From: an uncultured bacterium
Lineage (GTDB): Bacteria; Caldisericota; Caldisericia; JAAYUI01
DNA: 64,000 bases
Assembly (NCBI GenBank): GCA_965370295.1
Contig: CBDUSO010000003.1
Location: forward strand, 7,059 to 71,058
Reading direction: 5' to 3'
The translations under genes were made by a program, and so were the position numbers. Positions 28,743 through 43,353 of the stretch are shown in pieces. Below the pieces are notes generated by a model. That model did no database searches. It was not told the DNA's origin and worked only from the letters and a program-made list of their open reading frames with translations. Positions within the stretch are counted from its first letter, which is position 1, and every line of letters starts with the position of its first letter.

Positions 28743-30203
28743 ATGTCAGATGAAGTAAGGGTTAGAATTGCCCCATCCCCAACTGGAAAACTCCACATCG
28801 GCAATGCAAGAACAGGTTTGTTCAACTATCTTTTTGCAAGAAACAATGGTGGAAAATTTATCCTCAGAGTTGATGATACCGACAAAGAAAGATCCACTGA
28901 AGAGTCAGAAAATGCCATCTATGAAGGCTTTGAGTGGCTCGGAATAGATTGGGATGAAGGTCCAAACAAAGGTGGAGATTTTGGTCCATACAGGCAGAGT
29001 GAACGAGGGGATCTCTACCATGATGCAATAGAAAAACTCCTTGAATCCGGGAATGCATACTTTTGTTTTTGTCCAAAAGAAGAGCTTGCTCAAAAGAGAA
29101 CAACAGCCGAAAAAGCTCACGAGATTTACAGATATGACAACAAATGCAGAAATATTCCTTTAGCAGAAGCCAGAAAAAGAGTAGCAGATGGGGAACGAGC
29201 AGCAATCAGATTGCGAATTCCCGATGATTTGGCTATCACTTTTACAGACATGATTCGTGAAGAGATTGAGGTAAAATCAAATGCGTTTGATGATTTTGTG
29301 ATTGCAAAACCAAACGGTGATCCTCTCTACAATTTGGCAACTGTCATTGACGATCACCTGATGAAAATAACCCATATTTTGCGAGGACAGGACCATCTCA
29401 CAAATACTTCAAAGCAAATTCTGATATTTAATGCTTTGGGATATGATTTGCCAAGATTTGGGCATTTCTCTCTCATCATGGATAAAAATAGAAAAAAGCT
29501 GAGCAAACGTGCTGGGGCTGTTTACATCGGTGATTTCAAAAAAGATGGATATTTACCACAGGCGGTTACAAATTTTATTGCACTTCTTGGATGGTCGCCT
29601 GGTGAAGATCGGGAAAAAATGATCTTGGAGGAGATGGTTCAGGCATTTTCCATGAAGAGAATTCAGAGATCGGATGCAATCTTTGACACAGAAAAATTGT
29701 TATGGTTGAATGGTGTTTATATACGAGATATGTCTCTTGACAAATTCCTTGAAACCGTAAAACCCTACCTGAAATCCGCAGGGTATCCTGTTGATGATGT
29801 TTCCTCCGAGTGGCTGAAAAAAGTTGTCTCACTTGAACAGGAACGAATAAAAACTTTCGCAGAAGCCCCCGAAGTGTTTGAATTCTTCTTCAAAGACCTC
29901 CCGTATGATAAAATCTTGCTGACCAAAAAAACCAAAAAAACTGAAGAAGAAGTTGCGTCTGCTCTTGGAATTGTCAAAGAAAAACTTTCAAAAGTTGAGC
30001 AATGGATAGAACCAGAACTTGAAAAAACCTGCCGAGAAATCGTTGAAAGTTTAGAATGGAATGCTGGACAACTCTTCATGCCTATCCGAATTGCAATCAC
30101 AGGACGCAAGGCCACGCCACCGCTTTTTGACACGATGGAAGTTCTGGGTCGTGAGCTTAGTCTGAATCGCATTGACAAAGCAATCAGTTTGCTTACAGTC
30201 TGA
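28743..30203 (+). CDS. gltX: glutamyl-tRNA synthetase
   Basis: RIAPSPTGKLHIGNART is a HIGH-class motif, with a KMSKS-like KLSKR. Start at ATG 28743 after an AAAGAGG RBS. Confidence 0.9.
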   Translation: MSDEVRVRIAPSPTGKLHIGNARTGLFNYLFARNNGGKFILRVDDTDKERSTEESENAIYEGFEWLGIDWDEGPNKGGDFGPYRQSERGDLYHDAIEKLLESGNAYFCFCPKEELAQKRTTAEKAHEIYRYDNKCRNIPLAEARKRVADGERAAIRLRIPDDLAITFTDMIREEIEVKSNAFDDFVIAKPNGDPLYNLATVIDDHLMKITHILRGQDHLTNTSKQILIFNALGYDLPRFGHFSLIMDKNRKKLSKRAGAVYIGDFKKDGYLPQAVTNFIALLGWSPGEDREKMILEEMVQAFSMKRIQRSDAIFDTEKLLWLNGVYIRDMSLDKFLETVKPYLKSAGYPVDDVSSEWLKKVVSLEQERIKTFAEAPEVFEFFFKDLPYDKILLTKKTKKTEEEVASALGIVKEKLSKVEQWIEPELEKTCREIVESLEWNAGQLFMPIRIAITGRKATPPLFDTMEVLGRELSLNRIDKAISLLTV

Positions 30204-30206
30204 AAC

Positions 30207-30280
30207 GCGGTCGTAGCACAACTGGATAGTGCACTTGCCTACGGAGCAGGAGGTTGCAGGTTCGAACCCTGTCGACCGTA
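30207..30280 (+). tRNA. tRNA-Arg (anticodon ACG)
   Basis: Cloverleaf folded by hand. Acceptor GCGGTCG/CGACCGT (G1·U72 wobble), anticodon loop CTACGGA, T-loop TTCGAAC. No CCA encoded. Confidence 0.8.
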
Positions 30281-30305
30281 TATTTTGTCTGGAGTTTTTA
30301 GAGTG

Positions 30306-30758
30306 ATGATTTCCAAATTCATGAAGTTTGCATTTGAACAGGCATACCTTGCCAGAGAGCAGGGAGAACTGCCGGTTGGTGCAATTGTTGTGAGGGACGG
30401 GGAAGTGATAGGTAAAGCTTTCAACCATACACTGACAAACTCGGATCCAACCGCTCATGCAGAAATTCTTGCAATCAAAGATGCAGCAAAAACCATTGGT
30501 GATTGGCGTTTGACGAATTGTTCAATTTATGTAACCCTTGAACCATGCCCGATGTGCACTGGTGCAATCCTTCTCTCACGAATCTCAAATATTTATTTTT
30601 CAGCATATGACCACAAAGACGGAGCCTGTGGCTCCCGAATGAATCTCGCAGTACACCCAATTTTTGGACACAGTGCAAGGGTGCACCATGTTGACGGTGG
30701 AGAAGAATCATCAAACCTGATAAGAGAATTTTTCAGAAATAAAAGGAGAAAAAAATGA
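30306..30758 (+). CDS. tadA: tRNA-specific adenosine deaminase TadA
   Basis: HAEILAIKDA…LEPCPMCTGAI CDA zinc motifs. Start is uncertain between ATG 30306 and ATG 30321 (the latter after a shorter spacer from the tRNA). Confidence 0.8.
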   Translation: MISKFMKFAFEQAYLAREQGELPVGAIVVRDGEVIGKAFNHTLTNSDPTAHAEILAIKDAAKTIGDWRLTNCSIYVTLEPCPMCTGAILLSRISNIYFSAYDHKDGACGSRMNLAVHPIFGHSARVHHVDGGEESSNLIREFFRNKRRKK

Positions 30759-31699
30759 ACAAACATAATTTCATTGGAGAAATGAAAAGTGGAATGGAAG
30801 TTGATGGATATTACGTCCTTGTAAGAAAAGCTGAAAAATTGACAAAACATGGTGATCCATTTTTGAGCATGGTTCTCTCAGACAGCACAGGTCGAGCTGA
30901 TGCTGTGATGTGGAAAGAGGGAGTAACCAAGTGGGGAACAGACTTTGAGAGAAATCAGGTCGTCCGTATAAAAGGAAAAACCGAGGAGTATAACGACAAA
31001 GTTCAGATTGTTGCAGAGCGAGTTGGGGTTGCCGATCCAAATAACTATGACAGCAAATGGTTTCTTCCGATTTCACCTGTTTCAGTTGAAAATATAATAA
31101 CCCAGATAAAGGAAAATCTGGAAATTATCAAAGATGAAAAACTCAAGGAACTCGTAAATCTTTTTCTCTCTGACGAAGAACTTTTTTCAAAATTTGAAAC
31201 AGCACCAGGTGCTGTAAACCTTCATCATGCCTATCTTGGTGGGCTTGCTCATCACACACTTGGTGTGATGAATCTCTGTTTGGACATGGCAAGCAGGTAT
31301 CCCAACATAAGTCGCGACCTCCTCATTGTTGCGGCTCTCTTCCATGACATTGGAAAAATTCAGGAAAACACTTGGGATGTAAGCTTTGCAAGAACCGCTG
31401 ATGGTGATCTGCTTGGGCATATTATCCAGGGAATTCAGATTGTAAGACCGATGATTGAAAAGGTTTCACTGGACAAAGAAACCAGATTGAACCTTGAACA
31501 TTGCCTGATTGCTCATCATGGATTTTATGAGTATGGTTCACCAAAATTACCGATGACAAGAGAGGCACTGGCTCTCCACCTTGCAGATTATGCTGACTCT
31601 CATTTTGATGAATTTGACAGGATTTTGGAGGAAGTTGCACACGGTGAGGGGACTGGACCGATTCGTTTTCTTGATAATCGGAAATTGTATAATCTTTAA
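30755..31699 (+). CDS. yhaM: 3'-5' exoribonuclease YhaM-like (N-terminal OB-fold + HD domain)
   Basis: 314 aa. OB-fold N-terminus, then an HD motif (HHTLGVMN…ALFHDIGK). Start overlaps the tadA stop (ATGA). Confidence 0.7.
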   Translation: MNKHNFIGEMKSGMEVDGYYVLVRKAEKLTKHGDPFLSMVLSDSTGRADAVMWKEGVTKWGTDFERNQVVRIKGKTEEYNDKVQIVAERVGVADPNNYDSKWFLPISPVSVENIITQIKENLEIIKDEKLKELVNLFLSDEELFSKFETAPGAVNLHHAYLGGLAHHTLGVMNLCLDMASRYPNISRDLLIVAALFHDIGKIQENTWDVSFARTADGDLLGHIIQGIQIVRPMIEKVSLDKETRLNLEHCLIAHHGFYEYGSPKLPMTREALALHLADYADSHFDEFDRILEEVAHGEGTGPIRFLDNRKLYNL

Positions 31700-31726
31700 T
31701 GAATATCCTTTGATATTTTAATGTTT

Positions 31727-31770
31727 GTAGGGGAGGGTTTGAAACCCTCCCCTACGTTATTCTTATTTCC
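31727..31770 (+). terminator. rho-independent terminator after yhaM
   Basis: 14-bp perfect palindrome GTAGGGGAGGGTTT/GAAACCCTCCCCTAC followed by a T-rich tract. Confidence 0.65.
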
Positions 31771-31902
31771 TGTCTCTCTCTACGTCTTTCCCGTAAAAAC
31801 GGGAATCTAGGGTAGCAAAAAAGCGTATTCATATTTTGGAAAAACAATTGTTGAATCAGATAAGTTTTTTGTTTTTCATAAATGTGTACTCAGCTCCAAG
31901 AA

Positions 31903-31932
31903 CCCTGGATTCCGCATCAAGTGCGGAATGAC
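31903..31932. repeat. palindromic repeat, copy 1 (ccctggattccgcatcaagtgcggaatgac)
   Basis: 8-bp stem ATTCCGCA/TGCGGAAT. A near-identical 30-mer occurs at 38425-38454. Both lie about 110-135 nt upstream of a tRNA gene. Confidence 0.7.
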
Positions 31933-32037
31933 AAAGGAGGGCAAAAAGCGGACATCTCCCCTTGAAAAAGGGGAGCATAAACCGGAATGACGATGTATCT
32001 AATTGACTACCAACACACAAAACGTAAACTCACACGT

Positions 32038-32129
32038 GGAGAGATGGCTGAGCGGTTGAAGGCACCTGATTCGAAATCAGGAGTGTGGGGTTTCCTGCAT
32101 CGGGGGTTCGAATCCCCCTCTCTCCGCCA
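32038..32129 (+). tRNA. tRNA-Ser (anticodon CGA), CCA encoded
   Basis: Acceptor GGAGAGA/TCTCTCC, anticodon loop TTCGAAA, long variable arm, T-loop TTCGAAT, 3' GCCA. Confidence 0.85.
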
Positions 32130-32144
32130 TGGAAGGGAGATATT

Positions 32145-32918
32145 ATGCCAGAGAGTGTGCTAGACGCAATGCCTATCGTTGTTGCAGTACTTGGAGCTGT
32201 ATTGACCGGTTTCGTTAGTTTTTTGGTGTCCCGTTATAGTATTAAAGTTACAATCAGGGAAATGGTTTCTATTGAGTACAAGAAAACCAAAGCAGAACTA
32301 GCTTATGCAGAATATGTAAGATGTAAAAATGCATTTTACCAGGAACTGTACCATAATATTGTTAGTGCATTTGGTTATGCAAAAGATATCAAAAATGGAC
32401 CGGTAAGCTTTGGCTTTGATGATGACTCAGTGGATATAGTAGACGCAGAATTATTAATGCAAGACCGAAAAATACCAAACAAATCACAAGCAAAAGTGCT
32501 AAATTTATTCAGACAACCAAAAGATAATAGAGTTGCTTTTATAGAGCTAGAAACCGTCTTAGTTGTTGATTACCAAAACCAATGTAACGAAAGCATTAGA
32601 GTGTTGAACAATAGTATTGTCAGAGGTTATATTTATATGGCTGTGGAGTTATACGATAGGTGCAAATCTCTGTTGAAGAATATTGAAAATATTTTCAACA
32701 ACAGCAACAGGATAGGTTGTCTAAATGGAATAAAAAATCCTAAATATTTTAGTATAAAGGAATCAAAAAATAACATAACAGTAGAAAAACTAATGAATAG
32801 AAATTCACAAATATTAGACTCAGTCAGCAAATCGTTATTGGATATTGCTAAAGAAATAAAAGAAGAACTGGATAAACCGTTATCAGCTATTATGGATGAT
32901 GGTAGTAGTAAAAAATAG
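32145..32918 (+). CDS. hypothetical membrane-anchored protein (AT-rich islet)
   Basis: ATG start 15 nt after the tRNA-Ser 3' end. One N-terminal TM. GC content is clearly lower than the surrounding genes. No recognisable motif. Confidence 0.45.
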   Translation: MPESVLDAMPIVVAVLGAVLTGFVSFLVSRYSIKVTIREMVSIEYKKTKAELAYAEYVRCKNAFYQELYHNIVSAFGYAKDIKNGPVSFGFDDDSVDIVDAELLMQDRKIPNKSQAKVLNLFRQPKDNRVAFIELETVLVVDYQNQCNESIRVLNNSIVRGYIYMAVELYDRCKSLLKNIENIFNNSNRIGCLNGIKNPKYFSIKESKNNITVEKLMNRNSQILDSVSKSLLDIAKEIKEELDKPLSAIMDDGSSKK

Positions 32919-33264
32919 TATAAAGTCTAATTCAGTTATCCAATCCCACTCAACACAAATATCATAATACCCAGTCAAGCGCAACACCTTTGGACAATTC
33001 ATAGAAGGTGCTGGTATAAAAGAAATTCAAACTCCATAATATCCAGTCGAAGGTTCAAAATTCTAACACCTGAAATCTTGTAAGAACCCCCCCCCAATTT
33101 TCACAGCGTGAAAATTTGATCCCCTTGAAAAGAGGGGATTGACCACCCCCAATCCAAAGTCAAAAGTACTATTCCCATCCGTAGTAATTTAATTGAACAA
33201 TTCTGGTATATTCATACCATAATCCAGCTGATTCTAAAAGCTAGAAACGCAAAAGGAGTAATTT

Positions 33265-33582
33265 ATGCAAACTATGTTGTTGGTGAATACCGTTGTGAAA
33301 TCGCTGATAGTGATCGTTTGTGTCGTCGGTTTCATGTTTTCTCTGAACCTTGTGAGACACTACAAAAAGTCAATATTTGGGGTGCTGGCTCTGTTTTTGT
33401 CGATTGGTTTTCCGTTTATTGCTGTTGGAAAAGTGTTTGGAATAATTTCAAATATTACCGGAAATGGTAGACTCGGAAGCTTGAACGAAATGGTCTCGGT
33501 TGTTGGTCTGATCGCAATGTTGGTTGGATTGGTGCTACTTGACCGAACTGCCAAGAAAAAATTGGAGAGCTTAAATGCCTGA
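33265..33582 (+). CDS. small hypothetical membrane protein (3 TM)
   Basis: 105 aa, hydrophobic, with an RBS-like AAAGGAG upstream. Confidence 0.4.
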   Translation: MQTMLLVNTVVKSLIVIVCVVGFMFSLNLVRHYKKSIFGVLALFLSIGFPFIAVGKVFGIISNITGNGRLGSLNEMVSVVGLIAMLVGLVLLDRTAKKKLESLNA

Positions 33583-33913
33583 AGCCAGTGTTGGATTACC
33601 CGTTTACATTTTAAAATCATTGATTATTGGCGTTCTTATTGCAATGGTTGTGTTTTCGATACTTGTTTACAAACACTTCAAGGGTTCACATTTTGAAAAG
33701 ACTACAAAGTACTTTACAACAGGATTTTTTGCAATTGGAATTGCGATGATAATCTCCATTATTTTCGTATTCCTGCTTGACAATCACTTCGTGCCTATCG
33801 CTTATAAGTGGGCAATGTCTCTCTATGAAGTGCTTGGCTTTGTTGGGTTGTGTTTGGTGGTGTATGGTCTCTACAGGCATATCCACCATTCAGGAGTAGA
33901 TTCAGCCAGATAA
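33575..33913 (+). CDS. small hypothetical membrane protein (3 TM)
   Basis: 112 aa. Overlaps the previous ORF by 8 nt. Confidence 0.4.
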   Translation: MPEASVGLPVYILKSLIIGVLIAMVVFSILVYKHFKGSHFEKTTKYFTTGFFAIGIAMIISIIFVFLLDNHFVPIAYKWAMSLYEVLGFVGLCLVVYGLYRHIHHSGVDSAR

Positions 33914-33937
33914 AAATCTGGAGAATATCAGTGTGTT

Positions 33938-33978
33938 TATGCGTGGGGTGAGTTCTCTCATCTCACGCATATTTTTTT
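33938..33978 (+). terminator. rho-independent terminator
   Basis: TATGCGTGGGGTGAG…CTCACGCATA hairpin followed by TTTTTTT. Confidence 0.6.
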
Positions 33979-34094
33979 GTAAATCTTTCCTTTCTCACTT
34001 TTGACTTGTCAAACAAATCCATCTGTATATGATAACAATTGTCTAGAATCCAGACGTTACTACTCTAGCAATAAAACCTAAAAAAGGTGGTGAT

Positions 34095-34640
34095 ATGAAA
34101 GAGATTCGAATTCATGGAAGAGGAGGTCAGGGTGCAGTTACTGCCGCTGAGTTGCTGGCTACATCAGCATTTTATGATGGCAAATTCGCCCAGGCATTCC
34201 CAAGTTTTGGTTCAGAGCGAAAGGGTGCTCCCGTCATGTCGTTTGCTCGTGTGGATGACAAAAAAATCCGTACGAGGGTTCAGATTGAAACACCCAACTA
34301 TCTGATTGTTCAGGACTCAACGCTTCTTGCGGTGGTCGATGTTCTTCATGGTCTTGGTGATGATGGTTTAGTAGTTGTCAACACAACGAAGACTCCTGCT
34401 GAACTTGGACTGAAAACGAAGTCAAAAGTAATCACGCTGGATGCAACGTCAATCGCAGTTGAGGAGCTTGGAAAACCAATCCCAAACACTGTCATGATTG
34501 GTGCATTTGCAGGAGCTACCGGGCTTGTTTCAATTGATTCAGTTGAAAAAGCTGTTCGACATCGCTTCTCAGGTGAGCTTGGTGAAAAGAATGCGAAGGC
34601 ATGCAGAAGAGCATTCAATGAAGCAAAGGAGGCAAAATAG
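34095..34640 (+). CDS. porG: pyruvate:ferredoxin oxidoreductase gamma subunit
   Basis: 181 aa of the POR gamma family (MKEIRIHGRGGQGAVTAAELL…). Strong RBS AAAGGTGGTGAT. Confidence 0.85.
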   Translation: MKEIRIHGRGGQGAVTAAELLATSAFYDGKFAQAFPSFGSERKGAPVMSFARVDDKKIRTRVQIETPNYLIVQDSTLLAVVDVLHGLGDDGLVVVNTTKTPAELGLKTKSKVITLDATSIAVEELGKPIPNTVMIGAFAGATGLVSIDSVEKAVRHRFSGELGEKNAKACRRAFNEAKEAK

Positions 34641-34641
34641 A

Positions 34642-34911
34642 ATGAGCAAGGTAATCATTAGACCGGGTATCATTGTTCAACCAGGGACAACCAGAGAAAA
34701 CAAAACTGGTTCCTGGAGAAATTATGCCCCAAAATTTGACAAAGAAAAATGCACAGCATGTGCCCAGTGTGAAACCTATTGCCCGGAGTTTATTATTTAC
34801 GGAGATCGTGAACATAAATATGATGCAGACCTTGATTATTGCAAAGGTTGCGGAATCTGTGTCCAGGTTTGCCCTGTGAATTGTATTGAAATGGTTCTGG
34901 AGGTCAGGTAA
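34642..34911 (+). CDS. porD: pyruvate:ferredoxin oxidoreductase delta subunit (2x[4Fe-4S] ferredoxin)
   Basis: CTACAQCETYCP and CKGCGICVQVCP motifs. Start at the MSKVII ATG, 2 nt after the porG stop. Confidence 0.8.
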   Translation: MSKVIIRPGIIVQPGTTRENKTGSWRNYAPKFDKEKCTACAQCETYCPEFIIYGDREHKYDADLDYCKGCGICVQVCPVNCIEMVLEVR

Positions 34912-36086
34912 TGGCAAAGGTATTTATTGAAGGAAGCATGGCTATTGCAGAAGGTGCAGCACTTTGCAGACCTGGAGTAATCTCAGCCTATCCAATCACA
35001 CCACAGACTCACATTGTTGAGGATTTGGCAAAGTTTGTTGCCGACGGAAAACTCTTGTGTGAATTTGTAAACACCGAGTCAGAATTTGGTGCGGCATCCG
35101 TTGTTCTTGGTGCTCAGGCTGCCGGCGTTCGTTCATACACAGCAACCACATCACAGGGACTCATCCTCATGTCAGAAGTTCTCTTTAACGTTGCTGGAAT
35201 GAGACTTCCATTGGTCATGTGTGTTGCAAACCGTTCACTCTCTGCTCCACTCTCAATCTGGACAGACCATCAGGACGTTGTAACACTTCGTGATTCTGGA
35301 TTCATCATCATGTTTGCAGAAGATGCTCAGGAAGCACTCGATATGCACATGATCGCATTCAAAATTGCAGAGGACAAAAGGGTTCAGCTTCCAGTGATGG
35401 TAAACGTTGATGGATTTCTCATCACTCACACATATGAACCGGTTGATGTTCCAACTCAGGAACAGGTTGACAAGTTCTTGAAACCGTATGTGCCATTCCA
35501 GGAACTTGATCCAAAAAAACCATGTACCATGGGTGCATTCACCGAACCTGCCTATCACATGGAAGTCAGATATGCAATGCACAAGGCAAATGTTGATTCT
35601 GTAAAAGTTATCGAGGAAGTATCTGCTGAGTTTGAGAAACAGTTTGGAAGAAAAGCATGCGGACTAACCCAGGGATATAAACTTGATGATGCTGAAACCG
35701 TGGTTGTTGCGTTTAGTTCAATCACAGGATTACTTGAAGAGGCAACCGATTATCTGAGAGAAAAAGGTCAGAAGGTTGGCGTTCTCAAGATTAAAACCTA
35801 CAGACCATTCCCAGCAGATGCTATCAGAAAAGCACTTGCCGGTAAAAAACGTGTTATCGTTCTTGACCGTGCAATGTCAGCTGGATTTGGTGAGATTCTT
35901 GGTGCCGAAGTTCGTAGTGCCATGTATGGAGCAGACGGTCAACCACCAATCGACAGTTATATTTATGGACTTGGTGGAAGAGACATCAATGTTGCAACAA
36001 TCGAAGAACTGGTCAACAAACCCAATCCAGGAAAACATCACAGTGAATGGATTGGCGTAAGACATGACATTCTGGAGGAAGCATAA
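34911..36086 (+). CDS. porA: pyruvate:ferredoxin oxidoreductase alpha subunit
   Basis: 391-aa POR/KOR alpha domain. Start overlaps the porD stop. Confidence 0.85.
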
Positions 36087-36985
36087 TGGATAATCTAAAA
36101 GAGAAGTTAATGAAAAAGCATCTCCTTGCTCCTGGTCATACCGCCTGTGCTGGTTGTGGTGAAGCACTTGGAATGAGAATGATTATTGATGCAATCGGCT
36201 CAAACTCAATCGTTGCGAACGCAACCGGTTGCTCAGAGATTTTCACATCCAAATTCCCGCAGAGTTCATGGGAAGTTCCATGGATTCACTCTCTGTTTGA
36301 GAATTCTGCAGGTGTTGCAAGTGGAATTGAAGCTGCATACAAAGCCAAAGGTCGCACCGATGTTAAGGTTGTTGCAATCGGTGGAGATGGTGCAACTGCC
36401 GACATTGGAATGGGTGTTATCTCTGGAATGTTTGAACGTGGTCACAATATTCTTTATGTCTGTCTTGACAATGAAGCTTATATGAACACTGGAATTCAGC
36501 GTTCATCACTCACTCCTTTCAAAGCCTCAACCACCACATCCCCTGCTGGAAAAGTTTCCTATGGAAATCCAACTCGCAAAAAAGACCTCATGGCAATCGC
36601 TCTTGCACATCGTGTGGGATATGTTGCCTCATGCTCTCTCGCAAATCCAAGAGACCTTGAACGTAAAGTAAAAAAAGCCGTTGAACATGTTGGTCCATCA
36701 TTCATCCACTTCCATGCTCCCTGCCCCCTTGGTTGGGCTTTTGAATCTGACCAGACAATCAACATTGCAAAACTCGCAGTCAACACCGGATTGTTCCCCG
36801 TTCTTGAGTATGAAAACGGTGAATTAATCAAAGTTGGCAAGATCAAAAAAGTTCCAGTTAATGGATACCTTGAACTCCAGAAACGCTACCGTCATTTATT
36901 CAAAACTGACGAAGGCAAAGCATTTATTGCTGGCATCCAAGAGATTGCTAATGGAAATATTGCGAAGTTTGGTTTGGAGAAGTAG
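36086..36985 (+). CDS. porB: pyruvate:ferredoxin oxidoreductase beta subunit (TPP-binding)
   Basis: GDG-x-N TPP motif ([13 protein letters not shown]…[11 protein letters not shown]) and Cys ligands for the proximal cluster. Confidence 0.85.
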
Positions 36986-37029
36986 GACAGTAACCAGATA
37001 GTTATTATTTATTTTTGAAAATACAAAAA

Positions 37030-37056
37030 GGGAGTCATGAACTGACTCCCTTTTTT
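37030..37056 (+). terminator. rho-independent terminator after porB
   Basis: GGGAGTCA-tgaac-TGACTCCC hairpin followed by TTTTTT. Confidence 0.7.
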
Positions 37057-37110
37057 ATTATGCGGGGACAAGGATTCCTACAGGTTATCGATATTCATCT
37101 TGCTATGATT

Positions 37111-37213
37111 GTCATTCCTGAGAAATCGGGAATCCAGGAGATTAAAGAATTGAATTCAAATTCTGAAAAATCAACAATCAACTAGACAAGATTTCTGTTT
37201 TCTCAGGAATGAC
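37111..37213. mobile_element. MITE-like element with 15-bp terminal inverted repeats
   Basis: GTCATTCCTGAGAAA (37111-37125) is the exact reverse complement of TTTCTCAGGAATGAC (37199-37213). The 70-nt core is about 92% identical to 38325-38395. Confidence 0.55.
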
Positions 37214-37232
37214 AAGTCCTTATTTTCTTAGT

Positions 37233-37261
37233 TTGACAATATTAGTCTTTAGAAATAAAAT
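37233..37261 (+). promoter_or_regulatory. near-consensus sigma70 promoter of the TIR gene
   Basis: TTGACA-N17-TAAAAT lying 40 nt upstream of the GAGGAGG RBS and ATG 37301. Confidence 0.5.
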
Positions 37262-37300
37262 GTGTACTTGTTGAAATGAAATCAGAGGAGGCTTTAGGGT

Positions 37301-38275
37301 ATGTTTACGATTGAATATAAACTTGATAGTGATTTTGGGAAGGAACGGTTTTGGGTGTATATGGATTGGTCATACATGGAGGGTAATGAGGAGGGTATTG
37401 TTCTGTATTTTGATATTCCTGTAAATAATCCAAATGCAAATCGTGAACAGCTTTGGGAGGAATTCAATGCTTTTCTAAGAAGAGAAAAGGTTGAATGGTT
37501 AATCAAAGATGATGAAGATTATATTCTTGATTTTGACAATCTTCTTAATGACATCAGGACGGGAGATCGATATGAAAAAAGATGTACCAATTTCCCAGAT
37601 GTAGAATGGTTCAACGGAAAACTCGAAGTGCCTATTCGGCAGGGTGGTGTATCAGTAAATTCAGGCTCAGGTGATCCAAATGACTTGTATTGCACTTACG
37701 ACTTAACGTTGCTCAAGGCTCAGATTGAAAAAAGAAAAAGAGATATTGAAGAAATAAAAAAATTGCAAGCACCCAAAATAATTTTTCTAAGTTGTGCACA
37801 CGAAGACCGTAAGCGCATAGATGAATTTCAAAAGACATTAGAAGTTATAGGCTATGATTGTTGGTTTTATGAAAACGATAGTATTGTAGGAAAGCCTTGT
37901 TCAGAAGAATATTTGGCTAAAATAAAGAATTCAAGAGTAGTTGTATACTTCATTACTGAATCGTTTACTGAAAAGATAAAAAATACTGGTAGTGGTGTAT
38001 ACAAAGAGCTTTTTGCAGGTGTTGAAAGATACCAATCTGAAAATGAGAAATTCAAGATTATACCAATAATAATGCCTCCTCTGAGGGTAATTTATAAAAT
38101 ATTAAGAAAATTGGGAGTAAGGAAAATTAAGATTCCCAGTATTATAAAAGAGACTGATATTACATATTCGGAGGGTAAATCAGAACTTGAGTGTTTACGC
38201 ATTATTCTTAAGAGTATCCAAGATTTGGAATTGAACGAAGCAACAGATTACTTAGGTGCTTTTTCTTTTGAATGA
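37301..38275 (+). CDS. TIR-domain protein with unknown N-terminal domain (candidate antiphage/NADase effector)
   Basis: Residues ~160-300 match TIR motifs: KIIFLSCAHEDRKRI (box 1), DCWFYENDSIVGK (BB-loop region), SRVVVYFITESF, and GVYKELFAGVE (alphaC with the conserved Glu). The gene is AT-rich with a strong RBS. Confidence 0.6.
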   Translation: MFTIEYKLDSDFGKERFWVYMDWSYMEGNEEGIVLYFDIPVNNPNANREQLWEEFNAFLRREKVEWLIKDDEDYILDFDNLLNDIRTGDRYEKRCTNFPDVEWFNGKLEVPIRQGGVSVNSGSGDPNDLYCTYDLTLLKAQIEKRKRDIEEIKKLQAPKIIFLSCAHEDRKRIDEFQKTLEVIGYDCWFYENDSIVGKPCSEEYLAKIKNSRVVVYFITESFTEKIKNTGSGVYKELFAGVERYQSENEKFKIIPIIMPPLRVIYKILRKLGVRKIKIPSIIKETDITYSEGKSELECLRIILKSIQDLELNEATDYLGAFSFE

Positions 38276-38305
38276 TATATCCAGTAATAGGTCGCCATAC
38301 TCTTC

Positions 38306-38395
38306 GTCATTCCCGCTTTACGCGGGAATCCAGGAGGTAAGGAATTGAATTCAAATTCTGAAAAACCAACAATCAACCAGACAGGATTTCTGTTC
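38306..38395. repeat. second, truncated copy of the MITE-like element (left TIR-like hairpin present, right TIR absent)
   Basis: gtcattcccgctttacgcgggaatccaggaggtaaggaattgaattcaaattctgaaaaaccaacaatcaaccagacaggatttctgtt aligns with 37111-37198. Confidence 0.5.
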
Positions 38396-38424
38396 CATAC
38401 AAATATTCACACGCTTTGATAGCA

Positions 38425-38454
38425 CCCTGGATTCCGCATCGAGTGCGGAATGAC
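38425..38454. repeat. palindromic repeat, copy 2 (ccctggattccgcatcgagtgcggaatgac)
   Basis: 29/30 identical to 31903-31932. A further gtgcggaatgac fragment lies at 38500-38511. Confidence 0.7.
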
Positions 38455-38588
38455 GAGGATGGATGTGGGATGACAAAAGAGTATTATAAAATAACGAGGG
38501 GTGCGGAATGACAAAAGCAATAATTCCCCAGCCAAAAAATGGTTTCTTGATTTTACTCCCAACCCCATATATAGTTGTCTGTCAGTGA

Positions 38589-38665
38589 GGCGACGTGGCC
38601 AAGTGGTCTAAGGCGATGGTCTGCAAAATCATTATTCAGGGGTTCGAATCCCCTCGTCGCCTCCA
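38589..38665 (+). tRNA. tRNA-Cys (anticodon GCA), CCA encoded
   Basis: Acceptor GGCGACG/CGTCGCC, anticodon loop CTGCAAA, T-loop TTCGAAT, 3' TCCA. Confidence 0.8.
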
Positions 38666-38684
38666 TCTTTTTAGACCAATCCTT

Positions 38685-39575
38685 TTATCCCAGCAATTCC
38701 TTCTTTATTTCGTCACCCGGTTTTTTCTGTTTGTCGGTAAGCGAGATAAATAGTGCTGTCTCAACGATAACAACGAGAAGAATTCCCAACTGAGATGCGA
38801 CAGTTCTGATGAATTGATTTGAAGTTGCATAGTCGGTGAAATAGGTGATTGTCATCGAGAGCAGAATAATCGGAGCTATAACCAAAACTATCAGTATTAC
38901 TTTTCCAGAACTGATGTGGATTGAATACTTGATGCTGTCAAATAATCTTTCGGATGATTCAAGTCGAATATAGCTGAGAAATGTGATTCTCAGGAATACA
39001 AAAACCAAAAAGATAACGGTTACAGATGCGACGATTGACCATGGTATGAAGCTCGTATTATTATTGATGAAATCCGGAGTAACAACATAGATTTGAACGA
39101 ATGTACCAATCAGTCCAGCAAAAAGAATTGGCGAGAGCGTCAACCACATTGCCCCTAAAAATCTCATAGAGGGTTTAACAGAAGAGGTAATTGCTTTACT
39201 GAGCGAATCCTTGTTTCTGAGAAGTTTGATGATTACCCAGCTTGCAAACCCGACCAAAAGTATCTGTATGGTGAGAGTGAGGAACACTTGAATTCCGCTA
39301 TTCATTGCTTTGAAAAATACTGTACTCTCCCCGCTTTCAGCAATAACTGGGATTCCACCTCTTATGATTTCTCCAAAAAGACTATCACTCCAGAGTCTCC
39401 AGGGAGAGAGACCGCCCCATCCAGACCCAACAAGCTTTGCCATGATTCGTTGAACAAAGAATGTGAGTGGGTATGAAACCGCTATCATGATTCCAAAAAC
39501 AATAATGCAACTCTTGAGGCACCTGTCTTTTATTTCAATCAGGACTGAAATAAATCTAGCAAATTGTTCAGCCAT
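38685..39575 (-). CDS. polytopic membrane protein, paralog 1 of 5 (unknown family)
   Basis: 296 aa with 6-7 TM segments. Shares topology and motifs with the four genes upstream. Confidence 0.55.
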   Translation of the reverse strand: MAEQFARFISVLIEIKDRCLKSCIIVFGIMIAVSYPLTFFVQRIMAKLVGSGWGGLSPWRLWSDSLFGEIIRGGIPVIAESGESTVFFKAMNSGIQVFLTLTIQILLVGFASWVIIKLLRNKDSLSKAITSSVKPSMRFLGAMWLTLSPILFAGLIGTFVQIYVVTPDFINNNTSFIPWSIVASVTVIFLVFVFLRITFLSYIRLESSERLFDSIKYSIHISSGKVILIVLVIAPIILLSMTITYFTDYATSNQFIRTVASQLGILLVVIVETALFISLTDKQKKPGDEIKKELLG

Positions 39576-39577
39576 TT

Positions 39578-40369
39578 CTATTTGACTGCTTTCAGGTATA
39601 ATGGTGCGAGCAAGGTGAGTTGGATGATCAGGATCAGGGAGCTAATTAATTCTGTGACAAGGGGAAGATTCCCTGTCAGATTGAAAAAAACTTTTGTCAT
39701 GATTGCAGTTACAATGACGATTCCAGCCACAATCCCGGTGAACATTTTTGTTTTATCCATCGAGGAACCAAGGGCAGAAAACCAGGATATTTTTTCGACC
39801 ACCACACAAAATGGTGTGAAGGCAAATCGGATATAAACGTAAAGAACAACGACCACTAAAATAATAAATATGAGCAAACCAGCTATGACATATACCAAAG
39901 CTCCTAGTCCAAATCCAACAGCAAAGGAGAGCAAGAGTATAATCGCAATCATAAGGTTTACCCCCATCATTCTGCAAAGATTTTTCCAGCCTGCCTTTAG
40001 GAATTGGGAGATTGCTGATTTGGAATTTGATTCTTTTTGTGTCAGATAGTTTGCGATCCCGCCCTGGATGAAACTGAAAACAATGAGGAAGCTGAACACA
40101 TTTAGAGATATTATTATAGTCAACGTTTTCCACATGGCAGGTGGGATTGCCTGAAGGAATGGAACCCCTGCTTTTATCTGGGTTGAACCGAACTCAAAAA
40201 TCTCAGAGATCATGACCTGAGAACTAACAATTCCACCTTGTGTTACCCAGAAAATAATACTTGGAATCAGTAGAAACAATGCTGAGACAAGCCATATCAT
40301 CAGAAAATCACTTGTTCTCTCTCTGATAAATCTTCCCAGAAATGTTAACGATAGTTGTGTGTTGCTCAT
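39578..40369 (-). CDS. polytopic membrane protein, paralog 2 of 5
   Basis: 263 aa. A …KAGWKNLCRMMGVNLM… motif is shared with the paralogs. Confidence 0.55.
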   Translation of the reverse strand: MSNTQLSLTFLGRFIRERTSDFLMIWLVSALFLLIPSIIFWVTQGGIVSSQVMISEIFEFGSTQIKAGVPFLQAIPPAMWKTLTIIISLNVFSFLIVFSFIQGGIANYLTQKESNSKSAISQFLKAGWKNLCRMMGVNLMIAIILLLSFAVGFGLGALVYVIAGLLIFIILVVVVLYVYIRFAFTPFCVVVEKISWFSALGSSMDKTKMFTGIVAGIVIVTAIMTKVFFNLTGNLPLVTELISSLILIIQLTLLAPLYLKAVK

Positions 40370-40387
40370 ACCCTGGAGTATAGCTGT

Positions 40388-41326
40388 CTATGATTTCTGG
40401 TCAATGAGAATATTCAATTTTAATTCTTTGTCTGCGATGGGAGTGATTAGAATCACGGTGAAAGTGATTATAAGTGTGAAGATAATTTGGGAACCACCAA
40501 AGCTGTGGCTGGACATGAGCAACGGGAGAATCCCAAAGCCAAGAGGAAAAATTGAAAATGTAAACAATGTCCAGAAATATTTGGCAGAGCGATTCCAACT
40601 TAAAACCAAACACTTCCCCGGTGAATAGTCAGTGTTCATCACATAAAATGGGGCAAGCATGAATCTGGCACTGCGATAAATCATCGCATACAACCCAACA
40701 GAAAGAATTATCCACAATTCCAACCTGCCAAAAACAATTACAGAGACAGTGTAGCAAAATGCAAAAAGAAATGCTGTAGCGATGAAAGTTCTGATTGTGA
40801 TGAGAATCATTATTCCAACCATTCGAACATATTGAGAGAGTTTGATACGGAAAAAAGTGACAAGACCAGAATTCTCGTCAGATTTTGAAGTGAACACGTT
40901 CACAAGACCACAGAGAATATATGGTAAAACAAGCAAAAACCAGACAAGCCCAATGAGTACCCATCGCCAGATTAACCACAAAACAAGCTGTACCTTCAGG
41001 TCAAGTTCGTGATTGAAAGTAATTCCGCCTTCATAATCAAATGAACCAAGTGTTTCCAATAATTCTTCGAAGAGATATGTCCCAGTAAAAACTTCGTTGA
41101 AAGCCTGTTTTTCTATCGATATTTCATTTATTTTTACGGACTTTCTTGAGCTTCTTGTGACTTCCTCTGTTTGGTTATTTATTTGATAGGGGTCATTTCC
41201 AAAAATTGCAAGGTTGATTGCAGGGGATAGCAGAGAGATGAGGAAGCAGACTACGATTATCAGAGCCAGCTCTGACCCCCATCTCTTCAGTGCAGTTGAT
41301 AAGAAATCTAGTGATTTACCAATCAT
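40388..41326 (-). CDS. polytopic membrane protein, paralog 3 of 5
   Basis: 312 aa. Confidence 0.55.
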   Translation of the reverse strand: MIGKSLDFLSTALKRWGSELALIIVVCFLISLLSPAINLAIFGNDPYQINNQTEEVTRSSRKSVKINEISIEKQAFNEVFTGTYLFEELLETLGSFDYEGGITFNHELDLKVQLVLWLIWRWVLIGLVWFLLVLPYILCGLVNVFTSKSDENSGLVTFFRIKLSQYVRMVGIMILITIRTFIATAFLFAFCYTVSVIVFGRLELWIILSVGLYAMIYRSARFMLAPFYVMNTDYSPGKCLVLSWNRSAKYFWTLFTFSIFPLGFGILPLLMSSHSFGGSQIIFTLIITFTVILITPIADKELKLNILIDQKS

Positions 41327-41338
41327 GTTGTGTTATTT

Positions 41339-42175
41339 TTACCAGGTAGTTCCTTCTGTTGATTCGTTGCTTATTTCTGATTCATCACCAACAAGTTCTG
41401 ATGCATGTTTGTAGAGTGGGTAGAACAGGAAAGCTTGAGAGAGAACAGTTATTACTATACTGATAATTAATGCCACATATAATCCCGAAACAAGTGATAA
41501 GATTATGTAATTAACAATACCTAGAAGCAGTGCTAATCCAAATAGACTCCAGTATACACTCTTTGCTTTTTTGAAAGATATACCGATGGTTGATAAAACT
41601 GGTGTGTCAGTTAATGCAGCTTCGTACATCATAAACATGAAAAATAGTGCGACAGCTGTTACCGCAAACGTGATAATGAAAGCGACAAAGAGTATGCCAC
41701 TGATATTCCCCGACATAAAAACTGAGAAAAAGATCAGTCCTAGAATCAGCCCGACTATTAGCCCGATCACAAAGGTTAGAAGTGCCTGAAGTAACGATGC
41801 ACCCAGCACACGACCAAACTTTTTAAGTCCCATATTGAAAAATAATGCCACATGGTTGTCTTCGTTTTTCTTCGAGTTTAAGTATGAGAGAAATCCTGCT
41901 GTGGTGAACGATGTAATCACTATCAAGATTATCACGAACAGAAATAATAATCCGACTAGATTACCAAGTTGTGGGGCTACGCCTGTACCTGCCCCAACAT
42001 TTGGAGACTGGAACATCCCGTATGGGTTTGGCATTGGTGTCATACCTGGACCAAGCGAACCAGAAAATAATAAGTACGGAAGGAGAGTGAAGCCAATAAT
42101 AATAAGTAGAATGATAAAAAATGCTGATGGATTTCTGGAAATCAACGATATAACGTTATTTATATATTTTTTCAT
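41339..42175 (-). CDS. polytopic membrane protein, paralog 4 of 5
   Basis: 278 aa. MKKYINNVISL… and …GFLSYLNSKKNED…FGRVLGASLLQAL… motifs. Confidence 0.55.
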   Translation of the reverse strand: MKKYINNVISLISRNPSAFFIILLIIIGFTLLPYLLFSGSLGPGMTPMPNPYGMFQSPNVGAGTGVAPQLGNLVGLLFLFVIILIVITSFTTAGFLSYLNSKKNEDNHVALFFNMGLKKFGRVLGASLLQALLTFVIGLIVGLILGLIFFSVFMSGNISGILFVAFIITFAVTAVALFFMFMMYEAALTDTPVLSTIGISFKKAKSVYWSLFGLALLLGIVNYIILSLVSGLYVALIISIVITVLSQAFLFYPLYKHASELVGDESEISNESTEGTTW

Positions 42176-42335
42176 GAAGTTTATTGTATTCAGTGAGTGT
42201 TAACGTGTCAAATGGAATTTCTGTGTGATTCACGTTTTCAGTTAATAATTTGTTGTTTTTTGTTGAAAAGAGGTGCTTTGAATGGGGACAAGGAATCAAA
42301 TTCTGATCCTCATCCCCAAAGAATGTTTATTTCAA

Positions 42336-43250
42336 TTATTCTGAAAATCCGCTTGCGTCAGGATTTTTGTTCTCTTCGTTCCTGAGTTTCTTGTAATGAG
42401 ATTCGAGAATTTTTCTGTCCATCTCATCCATTTGCCCTTTCTCTGCTCTGTCGGCCAACCATCTTTCTGTAGCCAAATTATAGAGTGGATAAAAAACAAA
42501 TGCCGTGAGATATCCGAATATTAGGTTTATCAAGAAGTATGAACCATAATACAATAGATCACCAAATTGTCTGAGCGCGCCTATCAGTAATGAAGAAACA
42601 ATTATCACAAATATCCAGAAAAACATCAACCAAAATACTTTCTTTGCTTTCTTGAATGAATTCGAAACCCACTCACCTACCACAGTTTCATCTTTGAGGG
42701 CAGCTTCAAATGTGATGAAATATGTGAACACCATCACAATGATTAATATGAGTGTGGATGCAATAATTAACCCAGAGCCTCCACCTGCTCCGCCACCAGG
42801 AGAGATTTGAAATATTGCCATAAGAATTGCAACGGCTATGGCAAGGGGAATGATATAAGCAAGCATCATGAGGTATTGCATCATGGTTGCACCTATCATT
42901 CTTCCCCATTTTCCAAATGCTGATTTGAAGAAGAAATTCACATACTCGTCTTTTTCTTGCCTCCCCTTTTTCAGATAGCTCAAAAAGCCACCTTCAATAA
43001 ACGCAGAAAAAATGCCAATGACCAGGATAGATAGCAACAGAAAAAGGAAGACTTCACCTGCTTGCCCAGTGATATATTCGTTTGTCCCCACCATACCTGT
43101 GGTTGAAATGTATTCCTGTGTGTTGAACACAAACTTATTGAAAAGAAACACAACAAGTGTCATCAACCCCCCGCAAATAAACAAAATCCACAGAAATGCA
43201 CCCGTATTATGCTTAACCAATTCAGAAACTTTTGATATATATTTTTTCAT
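42336..43250 (-). CDS. polytopic membrane protein, paralog 5 of 5
   Basis: Start placed at the MKKYISKV ATG by homology to paralog 4. The track ORF extends to ATG 43271. Contains …GFLSYLKKGRQEKDE…WGRMIGATMMQYL…. Confidence 0.5.
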   Translation of the reverse strand: MKKYISKVSELVKHNTGAFLWILFICGGLMTLVVFLFNKFVFNTQEYISTTGMVGTNEYITGQAGEVFLFLLLSILVIGIFSAFIEGGFLSYLKKGRQEKDEYVNFFFKSAFGKWGRMIGATMMQYLMMLAYIIPLAIAVAILMAIFQISPGGGAGGGSGLIIASTLILIIVMVFTYFITFEAALKDETVVGEWVSNSFKKAKKVFWLMFFWIFVIIVSSLLIGALRQFGDLLYYGSYFLINLIFGYLTAFVFYPLYNLATERWLADRAEKGQMDEMDRKILESHYKKLRNEENKNPDASGFSE

Positions 43251-43353
43251 AACGTTAATACTAACTAACATCTGATTTTTTTCAAGACGGGTTCAGTTGA
43301 CTAAACTTTGCTTGACCAGATTGGTTTACCGATGTATCTTTGTCGGAGGTTAT

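What the first reader, a model, noticed from the sequence alone, without database searches (positions are those of the whole stretch)
37111..37213. Complete MITE-like element (103 bp, 15-bp perfect TIRs) with a second truncated copy 1.2 kb away
GTCATTCCTGAGAAA…TTTCTCAGGAATGAC bound a 73-bp core containing a GAATTGAATTC palindrome. The core is ~92% identical to 38325-38395, where the right TIR is missing. Small non-autonomous elements like this are rarely annotated, and the pair brackets the TIR gene. Either they mediated its insertion, or they mark a recombination hot spot.
Basis: seen in the sequence. Interest (0 to 1): 0.5.

Follow-up and report, generated by a model that had tools for sequence, protein, structure and literature searches.

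The report
Hairpin-repeat units flanking an inserted TIR gene
The flagged "MITE" is a shortened copy of a ~150-bp intergenic unit built from two inverted hairpins of the NTS/SRM type known from Neisseria, and in this Caldisericia bacterium these hairpins mark the breakpoints where a TIR gene and, in a sister strain, another defence-candidate gene were swapped in.

Summary
The sequence is there. The inverted repeat is 17 nt and perfect (37109-37125 / 37199-37215), and the core is about 92% identical to 38323-38394. Copy 38306-38454 is the complete unit. The flagged copy carries a ~47-nt internal deletion.

The ends are not transposon ends. They are NTS/SRM hairpins (CGTCATTCC-stem-loop-GGAATCCAG), the published ssDNA target of small GIY-YIG Ssn nucleases. 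Two inverted hairpins around a ~93-nt spacer form a unit like the Neisseria dRS3-RS-dRS3 (NIME) unit. A third unit lies upstream of tRNA-Ser.

Close relatives (91-93% nt in the flanks) carry other alleles of the porB/tRNA-Cys spacer:
- L161 and L156 have one unit and no cargo gene.
- The window has a deleted unit, a TIR gene and a full unit.
- L151 has a hairpin, a DUF4917/PDC-S21 gene, a half-hairpin, a broken TIR gene and a full unit.

Every breakpoint falls at a hairpin. Copy 1 is a chimera that switches at its left hairpin.

There is no target-site duplication, no transposase and no copy of the core in three public collections. No Ssn gene was found, but the genome beyond the window was not available.

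Verdict: a recombination hot spot built from known hairpin repeats, and a new member of a known kind.

The parts
37025..37055 (+). Hairpin with a T-run after porB, read here as the intrinsic terminator of porB. It is the left border of the variable spacer.
   Evidence: 13-bp stem found (I6). The scan reports it on the minus strand. On the plus strand the hairpin is followed by TTTTT. It is conserved in L151, L156 and L161.
37110..37137 (+). SRM(+) hairpin of unit c1: TGTCATTCC-TGA-GAAA-TCG-GGAATCCAG. It has one T.G mismatch in the stem.
   Evidence: It is 4 edits from the NTS consensus. It folds weakly as DNA, -4.5 kcal/mol. It differs by one nucleotide from the resident hairpin of L161.
37138..37205 (+). 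Spacer (RS) of unit c1, shortened by a ~47-nt internal deletion.
   Evidence: Its first 62 nt (37138-37199) are 90% identical to the c2 spacer, 88% to L151 c2 and 75% to L161. The deletion is seen in alignment A6.
37206..37213 (-). GGAATGAC, the terminal 8 nt of the lost SRM(-) of unit c1.
   Evidence: It is at the same position as GCGGAATGAC at the end of the DUF4917 gene in L151.
37233..37261 (+). Sigma-70-like promoter of the TIR gene: TTGACA, 17 nt, TAAAAT.
   Evidence: 11 of 12 matches. It is conserved in L151.
37301..38275 (+). Cargo gene: a 324-aa protein with a C-terminal TIR_2 domain and an N-terminal half without a family.
   Evidence: Pfam TIR_2 E = 2.7e-11. Weak ThsB-like hit, E = 1.7e-4. 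GC is 33.5% against 41.1% for the window. The gene is absent from L156, L161 and L001. It has 34 relatives among 1.84 billion representative proteins.
38305..38333 (+). SRM(+) hairpin of unit c2: CGTCATTCCCGC-TTTAC-GCGGGAATCCAG.
   Evidence: It fits the published SRM pattern with one substitution and lies 3 edits from the NTS consensus, all at the loop; both arms equal that consensus. It folds as DNA at -8.5 kcal/mol.
38334..38426 (+). Full-length spacer (RS, 93 nt) of unit c2. It contains the core repeated in c1.
38427..38455 (-). SRM(-) hairpin of unit c2. On the minus strand it reads CGTCATTCCGCA-CTCGA-TGCGGAATCCAG.
   Evidence: -8.2 kcal/mol. The window lacks ~72 nt that separate two SRM(-) copies in L151, L156 and L161.
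38467..38512 (-). Two half-hairpins that keep only one arm: GGGATGAC at 38467-38474 and GGAATGAC at 38505-38512. Homology with L161 resumes at the second one.
   Evidence: (D5, D10).
38547..38665 (+). tRNA-Cys promoter (TTGATT, 17 nt, TATAGT) and the tRNA-Cys gene (38589-38665). This is the right border of the variable spacer.
   Evidence: It is conserved in all relatives.
31783..31933 (+). Third unit, upstream of tRNA-Ser: SRM(+) 31783-31810, a 94-nt spacer, SRM(-) 31905-31933.
   Evidence: Exact hit to the published SRM pattern.. Orthologous units lie at the same site in L156 and L001, with hairpins conserved and spacers diverged.

Best explanation
The 103-bp element is a decayed copy of a ~150-bp intergenic unit. 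The unit is an SRM(+) hairpin, a ~93-nt spacer and an SRM(-) hairpin.

The hairpins belong to the NTS/SRM family: CGTCATTCC, a stem-loop, then GGAATCCAG. In Neisseria and Wolbachia this family is the single-stranded-DNA binding and cleavage site of small GIY-YIG Ssn nucleases. The unit layout matches the Neisseria dRS3-RS-dRS3 (NIME) unit.

In this Caldisericia lineage one such unit sits between the porB terminator and the tRNA-Cys promoter. It acts as a landing pad. Foreign low-GC DNA carrying a TIR gene with its own promoter was recombined in. The crossovers fell at the hairpins, which are the only well-conserved stretches. That left a chimeric unit on the left and a full unit on the right.

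The left unit then lost 47 nt.

What is shown: family membership of the hairpins, the unit family, the alternative alleles, and breakpoints at the hairpins.

What is inferred: that hairpin extrusion and nicking by an Ssn-type nuclease encoded elsewhere, together with homologous recombination, drives or shapes these exchanges. The direction of each event is also inferred.
For: Hairpin family:
- GTCATTCC-N6-16-GGAATC occurs 4 times in the window against 0.01 expected.
- The published SRM pattern gives 1 exact hit and 3 hits within one substitution. Shuffles give a mean of 0.19 exact hits.
- The NTS and SRM definitions and the Ssn biochemistry are in PMC11893778.
- GTC before the palindrome and C after it are kept in all five hairpins. 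The paper reports these as decisive for cleavage and binding.
- The four intact hairpins fold as DNA at -7.1 to -8.5 kcal/mol.
- Across 38 distinct sequences (37 distinct viral-contig copies plus the window's c1 hairpin), the free stem positions covary: 20 double changes against 4.5 expected, 0 of 500 shuffles as high.
- The same hairpin was found in more than 120 IMG/VR stretches with GC from 42 to 70%.
- In L087 and L123 it flanks a GIY-YIG gene as SRM(+)-CCAGGAG-ATG...TGA-SRM(-).

Unit family:
- Seven units from four genomes align end to end.
- Convergent pairs are the commonest close arrangement in other contigs, including Neisseria NIME arrays.

Alleles:
- L161 and L156 have a single unit and no cargo.
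- L151 has SRM(+), a DUF4917/PDC-S21 gene (E = 5e-42), GGAATGAC, a broken TIR gene and a full unit.
- L001-type genomes have no unit.

Breakpoints:
- c1 is 95% identical to L161 in its flank plus hairpin. Its spacer is 90% identical to c2 and 75% to L161.
- Homology with L161 resumes at the half-hairpin at 38505.
- A 72-nt deletion lies between two SRM(-) copies.

Cargo:
- The TIR ORF has 33.5% GC, among the lowest 0.6% of 1-kb windows.
- It has its own promoter.
Against: - No Ssn or GIY-YIG ORF was found in the 64-kb window or in 133 kb of relatives' loci.
- The rest of the source genome could not be reached. The nuclease partner in this lineage is therefore unproven.
- Crossovers at hairpins are also expected from plain homologous recombination, because the hairpins are the best-conserved stretches of otherwise diverged units.
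- Only four allele types were seen, so the order and direction of events are inferred.
- Several hairpins fit the published SRM pattern only with one substitution. The c1 hairpin fits worse still.
- Strict dRS3 (ATTCCC-N8-GGGAAT) is matched only with one mismatch, at two sites.
Confidence: 0.6

Rival explanations
1. Passive repeats. The units are old conserved intergenic repeats whose hairpins serve another purpose, such as a protein-binding site, or RNA stabilisation or termination. There is no Ssn in this lineage. The gene swaps are ordinary RecA-dependent recombination after uptake of foreign DNA, and they resolve in the hairpins only because those are the longest identical stretches.
For: No Ssn gene was found in 64 kb plus 133 kb. 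Hairpins are conserved at orthologous sites while spacers diverge, which shows selection on the hairpin itself. The units lie directly after terminators and before tRNA promoters.
Against: The oriented non-palindromic flanks are kept exactly: GTC on the 5' side and C-CAG on the 3' side. The published work ties these to Ssn cleavage and binding. None of the hairpins is followed by a U-run. There is no Rfam family. In published genomes with more than 200 SRMs, 81% carry ssnA.
Confidence: 0.25
2. REP/REPIN system. The hairpins are repetitive extragenic palindromes spread as inverted doublets by a RAYT (IS200/IS605-type Y1 transposase).
For: The elements are inverted doublets of short palindromes around a less conserved spacer, lie between genes, and form long hairpins. 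This is the REPIN layout, from established knowledge (Bertels and Rainey 2011; Nunvar 2010).
Against: The sequence matches the NTS/SRM family, whose demonstrated partner is a GIY-YIG nuclease and not a Y1 transposase. In the ~20 kb around the locus that was scanned against Pfam, no Y1 transposase was found. In other contigs the gene flanked by these hairpins is a GIY-YIG gene.
Confidence: 0.07
3. True MITE. The element is a non-autonomous transposon with 15-17-bp terminal inverted repeats, moved by a DDE transposase encoded elsewhere. It carried the TIR gene in, or jumped in next to it.
For: A perfect 17-nt inverted repeat, a length of 103 bp, and a second related copy 1.2 kb away.
Against: There are no target-site duplications. 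The left end is resident sequence, present in the unoccupied alleles L161 and L156. The flagged copy is a deletion derivative of a longer unit. No further copies of the core were found in three collections. No transposase is nearby.
Confidence: 0.04
4. Site-specific integration. The two copies are attL and attR of a small island inserted next to tRNA-Cys by an integrase, or attC-type sites of an integron cassette.
For: Direct repeats flank a single foreign gene next to a tRNA gene.
Against: There is no integrase or IntI in the insert or within about 10 kb. The repeats are ~86-92% identical, not identical. The site lies upstream of the tRNA promoter and not in the tRNA 3' end. No GTTRRRY/RYYYAAC attC core is present, by direct reading. 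The repeat is a resident unit that is also present without cargo.
Confidence: 0.03

Closest known systems
NTS / SRM hairpin repeats, targets of Ssn GIY-YIG ssDNA endonucleases (PMC11893778, Nat Commun 2025)
   Same: Both arms of the hairpin at 38305-38333 equal the NTS consensus CGTCATTCCCGCG-MAV-GCGGGAATCYRG. The oriented flanks are kept. The repeats are intergenic and over-represented. The 'NTS-gene-NTS' arrangement is present.
   Different: The host is a Caldisericia bacterium. Loops are 4-5 nt and some stems read ATTCCGCA. No ssn gene was found in the sequence available. No biochemistry exists for this lineage.
Neisserial intergenic mosaic elements (NIMEs): dRS3-RS-dRS3 units (PMC1797815)
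   Same: A 93-94-nt spacer lies between inverted 20-odd-nt hairpin repeats. The units are mosaics: the right end of L151 c2 equals the right end of the window's tRNA-Ser unit. They lie next to variable genes. They fit the proposed role as recombination substrates for inserting array-flanked genes.
   Different: They are not in Neisseria. They occur as single units or pairs and not as long arrays. Strict ATTCCC-N8-GGGAAT is met only with one mismatch. Here alternative alleles in sister genomes show the breakpoints directly.
REPINs / BIMEs with RAYT transposases
   Same: Inverted doublets of extragenic palindromes with a variable spacer, which fold into long hairpins.
   Different: A different sequence family. 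The associated protein in other genomes is a GIY-YIG nuclease and not a Y1 transposase.
MITEs such as Correia elements (CREE)
   Same: Small size, terminal inverted repeats, intergenic position near genes.
   Different: No target-site duplication, no near-identical dispersed copies and no matching transposase. The copies are stable at orthologous sites.
Integron gene cassettes with attC hairpins
   Same: Single promoter-proximal genes bounded by hairpin-forming imperfect palindromes that act as single strands.
   Different: No IntI integrase, no attC core motifs, and the cargo gene has its own promoter.

Membership tests
NTS/SRM (Ssn-related motif) hairpins | Fits the NTS consensus or the degenerate SRM pattern HGTCWYN(0-2)YYVSBRHN(0-5)WNVSBRGN(0-2)RNCYNB | tested here: met
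   One exact hit (31783-31810). Three hits with one substitution (38305-38333, 38427-38455, 31905-31933). Shuffles give a mean of 0.19 exact hits. The c1 hairpin is 4 edits from NTS.
NTS/SRM (Ssn-related motif) hairpins | A hairpin-forming palindrome with oriented non-palindromic flanks: GTC on the 5' side and C on the 3' side | tested here: met
   DNA folds of -7.1 to -8.5 kcal/mol. Stem covariation across 38 distinct sequences, 37 viral-contig copies plus the window's c1 hairpin. The flanks are read directly.
NTS/SRM (Ssn-related motif) hairpins | A cd10448 GIY-YIG ssn gene in the same genome, often flanked by SRMs | tested here: inconclusive
   None in the window or in 133 kb of relatives. 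The rest of the genome could not be reached. The association was seen in other contigs.
NTS/SRM (Ssn-related motif) hairpins | Cut by the cognate Ssn as single-stranded DNA only | not testable with these tools
   Needs purified protein and oligonucleotides.
NIME (dRS3-RS-dRS3) | A 50-150-bp repeat sequence flanked by inverted dRS3-type repeats | tested here: met
   Spacers of 93 and 94 nt between convergent hairpins.
NIME (dRS3-RS-dRS3) | Strict dRS3 consensus ATTCCC-N8-GGGAAT | tested here: not met
   No exact match in the window and two matches with one mismatch. The other hairpins have N9 spacing or ATTCCG arms. L161 and L156 do carry exact dRS3 at the orthologous site.
NIME (dRS3-RS-dRS3) | Found in the genus Neisseria, in long arrays | tested here: not met
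   The host is Caldisericia. The units occur singly or in pairs.
MITE | Terminal inverted repeats | tested here: met
   17-nt perfect inverted repeat.
MITE | Target-site duplication flanking the element | tested here: not met
   The flanks of all three units show no direct repeat.
MITE | Presence/absence polymorphism with boundaries at the ends of the terminal repeats | tested here: not met
   The left end is resident in the unoccupied alleles. The variable segment runs from the 3' arm of the left hairpin to a half-hairpin at 38505.
MITE | Many near-identical dispersed copies and a matching transposase | tested here: inconclusive
   No other copy in the window or in three collections. No transposase within about 10 kb. 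The whole genome was not available.
REPIN/RAYT | A RAYT (Y1 transposase) gene flanked by the same palindromes | tested here: inconclusive
   Not found in the ~20 kb around the locus that was scanned against Pfam. In other contigs the flanked gene is a GIY-YIG gene.

The most novel reading that the evidence does not exclude
Inverted SRM hairpin pairs may form a hairpin-guided gene-cassette exchange system found across phyla. In this reading an Ssn-type GIY-YIG nuclease nicks the extruded hairpins. Segments bounded by SRM(+) and SRM(-) are then swapped or inverted as modules, much like an integron but without an integrase. The segments could be short spacers, ssn itself, or defence genes such as the TIR and DUF4917/PDC-S21 genes. 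The short SRM-spacer-SRM units would then be non-autonomous relatives of the SRM-ssn-SRM unit. That unit is seen in opposite orientations at the same phage locus in L087 and L006.
Probability: 0.15. Interest if true: 0.8.

Novelty: new member of a known kind. Interest (0 to 1): 0.45.

Why it matters
NTS/dRS3 hairpins and NIME units have long been proposed to promote gene exchange in Neisseria, and their nuclease partner was identified in 2025. This locus shows the same hairpin and the same unit layout in a distant, uncultured lineage.

It also offers a natural experiment. There are three close alleles: empty, TIR, and DUF4917 plus TIR. Their breakpoints fall at the hairpins. That makes the proposed recombination role directly testable. 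It also links the repeats to the turnover of anti-phage defence genes at tRNA-adjacent sites.

Tried and rejected
- Rfam, scanned at E up to 1 over 30000-40000: only tRNAs and noise, and nothing for the element.
- Exact look-ups of the window's TIR and PorA proteins: not on record, so the source contig could not be extended.
- A 20-mer of the core scanned in GTDB species genomes (7 hits) and JGI metagenome contigs (16 hits). All were 20-30-nt chance matches. A 22-mer found nothing in IMG/VR.
- GIY-YIG search of the window by regular expression, and by phmmer with Ssn-like ORFs from L087 and L123: nothing. The same search in relatives' loci also found nothing.
- A first 'empty site' inference from the distant L001 spacer. 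The split alignment scored 23 against 15.9 +/- 1.3 in shuffles. It placed a junction inside the left hairpin. It was superseded by the much closer alleles L151, L156 and L161.
- The idea that the spacer is a remnant of an ssn gene. The c2 spacer has only a 24-codon frame and c1 has a stop after 11 codons, with no similarity to Ssn (by reading).
- Search of the phage collection for an ssn-free version of the L087 locus: only terminase matches.
- Readings as attC, an integrase att site, or a terminator: rejected for lack of core motifs, an integrase, or a U-run.

Full report
**Observation.** The flagged sequence is real. GTCATTCCTGAGAAA and TTTCTCAGGAATGAC bound 37111-37213. The perfect inverted repeat is in fact 17 nt, 37109-37125 / 37199-37215. 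First-order Markov simulations of the window give 0.06 perfect 15-mers with a loop of 200 nt or less. It is the best inverted repeat in the 64 kb. The core 37127-37199 matches 38323-38394 at 91.8% over 73 nt. The two copies bracket an ORF, 37301-38275, with a TIR_2 domain (E = 2.7e-11). The statement that the second copy lacks its right end is wrong. That copy begins with GTCATTCC at 38306 and ends with GGAATGAC at 38454, and each of its ends is itself a hairpin.

**What the ends are.** The motif GTCATTCC-N6-16-GGAATC occurs four times in the window against 0.01 expected. With a relaxed 5' end there are five, against 0.02 expected. They form two convergent pairs, 38305-38333(+) with 38427-38455(-) and 31783-31810(+) with 31905-31933(-), plus the left end of the flagged element.

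The contigs had GC from 42 to 70% and included Neisseria. A full-text search for the sequence led to PMC11893778. That paper defines the Neisseria Transformation Sequence as CGTCATTCCCGCGMAVGCGGGAATCYRG. It defines a broader Ssn-related motif (SRM). It shows that small GIY-YIG proteins of family cd10448 (Ssn) bind and cut this hairpin only as single-stranded DNA. GTC before the palindrome matters for cutting, and the C after it matters for binding.

The window's hairpin at 38305-38333 has both arms identical to that consensus. The published SRM pattern gives one exact hit and three hits with one substitution, against 0.19 exact hits in shuffles. The four intact hairpins fold as DNA at -7.1 to -8.5 kcal/mol. 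I aligned 38 distinct sequences of the hairpin, 37 distinct copies from the viral contigs plus the window's c1 hairpin. The three stem positions left free by the search pattern covary: 20 double changes against 4.5 expected, 0 of 500 shuffles as high. Rfam has no family for the element.

**The unit.** Seven units align end to end as one family of about 150 bp, made of SRM(+), a spacer of about 93 nt, and SRM(-). The seven are the three in the window, two in L156, one in L151 and one in L001. In that alignment copy 2 is full length. The flagged copy 1 lacks about 47 nt, namely the spacer tail and all of SRM(-) except its last 8 nt, GGAATGAC.

The layout is that of the neisserial dRS3-RS-dRS3 (NIME) unit, described as 20-bp inverted repeats flanking 50-150-bp repeat sequences (PMC1797815). 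Among close hairpin pairs in the other contigs, the convergent arrangement is the commonest, at 36 of 80. Some of those contigs are redundant. The units are mosaics. The right end of the L151 unit, spacer tail plus SRM(-), closely matches the right end of the window's tRNA-Ser unit by reading (44 of 45 positions by my count), although the left parts differ.

**Host.** The SecY and PorB relatives that carry names are Caldisericia.

**Alleles of the locus.** An HMMER search of 1.84 billion representative proteins found a 78%-identical fragment of the TIR protein. Its contig, L151, is a close relative, with 91-92% nucleotide identity in the flanks. Members of the PorB cluster gave two more close relatives: L156, about 91%, and L161, 93%. 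All share the porB terminator on the left and the tRNA-Cys promoter and gene on the right.

The alleles are:
- **L161 and L156:** one unit, about 72 nt, a second SRM(-), a half-hairpin, and no cargo gene.
- **The window:** unit c1 (deleted), the TIR promoter and gene, unit c2, and two half-hairpins.
- **L151:** SRM(+), then a 384-aa DUF4917 gene matching the PADLOC candidate PDC-S21 (E = 5e-42). Its stop codon lies inside a half-hairpin, GCGGAATGAC. After it come the same TIR promoter and a TIR gene split into two ORFs, then a full unit and the second SRM(-).
- **The more distant L001-type genomes** (71-90% aa identity in housekeeping genes): only about 115 bp between porB and tRNA-Cys, and no unit.

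**Breakpoints.** Copy 1 is a chimera. Its left flank plus SRM(+) is 95% identical to L161 (39 of 41) and 65% to copy 2. Its spacer is 90% identical to copy 2, 88% to L151 and 75% to L161. The switch lies at the 3' arm of the hairpin.

On the right, homology with L161 resumes exactly at the half-hairpin GGAATGAC at 38505. The window-specific segment is therefore about 37138-38504, bounded by an SRM(+) and a half SRM(-). In L151 the DUF4917 gene occupies exactly the place of the c1 spacer, between the same hairpin and a half-hairpin. The window also lacks the ~72 nt that separate two direct SRM(-) copies in the three relatives. Every structural difference seen therefore ends at a hairpin.

**Cargo.** The TIR ORF has 33.5% GC against 41.1% for the window, which puts it among the lowest 0.6% of 1-kb windows. 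It has its own promoter, TTGACA-17-TAAAAT. It has only 34 relatives at E of 0.001 or lower, and a weak ThsB-like signal. This fits foreign origin and a defence role, but the function was not tested.

**Mechanism.** What is shown is a hot spot in which segments bounded by SRM hairpins are exchanged. I infer that foreign DNA carrying the TIR gene, with at least one unit, recombined with the resident unit. This could have been a single crossover of a circle, or a replacement with crossovers in the hairpins. The result is a chimeric left unit and a full right unit.

A later 47-nt deletion in c1 placed its spacer (TTTCT..) next to GGAATGAC. Together with a C-to-T change in the left hairpin, seen by comparison with L161, this gave the 17-nt perfect repeat.

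Whether an Ssn nuclease takes part here is not shown. No GIY-YIG ORF is in the window or in 133 kb of relatives, and the rest of the genome could not be reached. In other contigs the link is visible. In L087 and L123 a 104-aa GIY-YIG gene (Pfam E = 1.7e-14) lies between SRM(+)-CCAGGAG, which supplies its ribosome-binding site, and an SRM(-) that abuts its stop codon. Four of the viral loci carry such a gene.

**Rivals.**
- **Classical MITE:** unlikely. There are no target-site duplications. The left end is resident sequence. The core has no other copies in three collections. No transposase lies nearby.
- **REPIN/RAYT:** this shares the layout but not the sequence family or the partner protein.
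- **Integrase or integron:** this lacks an integrase and the core sites.
- **Passive repeats with ordinary recombination:** this remains the main rival. It differs from my explanation only in whether a hairpin-specific nuclease is involved.

**Novelty.** The hairpin family and its wide distribution are published, and so is the NIME idea. What this locus adds is the unit layout in Caldisericia and a set of sister alleles that place the exchange breakpoints at the hairpins, with defence-type genes as cargo. I rate it a new member of a known kind, of moderate interest.

Noticed in passing
window 32141-33043 (compare L156 2152-2973 and L001 3252-3971): The gene directly after tRNA-Ser, next to the third hairpin unit, is a second variable low-GC slot at 33% GC. 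The flanks are 89-100% identical to L156, but the gene has no detectable similarity to the L156 gene and is only 25% identical to the L001 gene.
   Followed up: partly
window 38314-38324 versus L151 3940-3950 and 6467-6477: The 5-nt loop of the c2 SRM(+) hairpin (TTTAC) is the reverse complement of the loop at the orthologous hairpin in L151 (GTAAA), while the stems are the same. It looks as if the palindrome was flipped, or converted from an inverted copy.
   Followed up: no
L087 3389-3768, L123 8601-8979, L006 2750-3230: In three related phage-like contigs an SRM-ssn-SRM unit lies after the terminase gene. In L006 the unit is in the opposite orientation to its flanks, with an extra ~700 bp beside it. 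This suggests the hairpin-bounded unit behaves as an invertible or mobile module.
   Followed up: partly
window 58387-58437: A perfect 19-nt inverted repeat (AATAAATCATGGATTCTGG / CCAGAATCCATGATTTATT) with a 13-nt loop. It is the only other perfect inverted repeat of 15 nt or more in the window.
   Followed up: no
window 38685-43271, minus strand: Five consecutive genes of 263-312 aa have no significant Pfam family. Two of them, 41339-42175 and 42336-43271, are paralogues (32% identity, E = 4e-26). The first is only 55% identical to its L001 orthologue, while PorB next door is 90% identical.
   Followed up: partly
window 31975-31993, 38467-38474, 38505-38512; L001 2904-2911: Half-hairpins that keep only the GTCATTCC-side arm recur a few to tens of nucleotides outside full SRM(-) hairpins, always in the same orientation. 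They may be scars of earlier events at the hairpins.
   Followed up: no
L151 4253-6437: A DUF4917/PDC-S21 gene lies directly upstream of the TIR gene, which is broken in L151. The pair may form a two-gene defence system, of which the window keeps only the TIR partner.
   Followed up: partly
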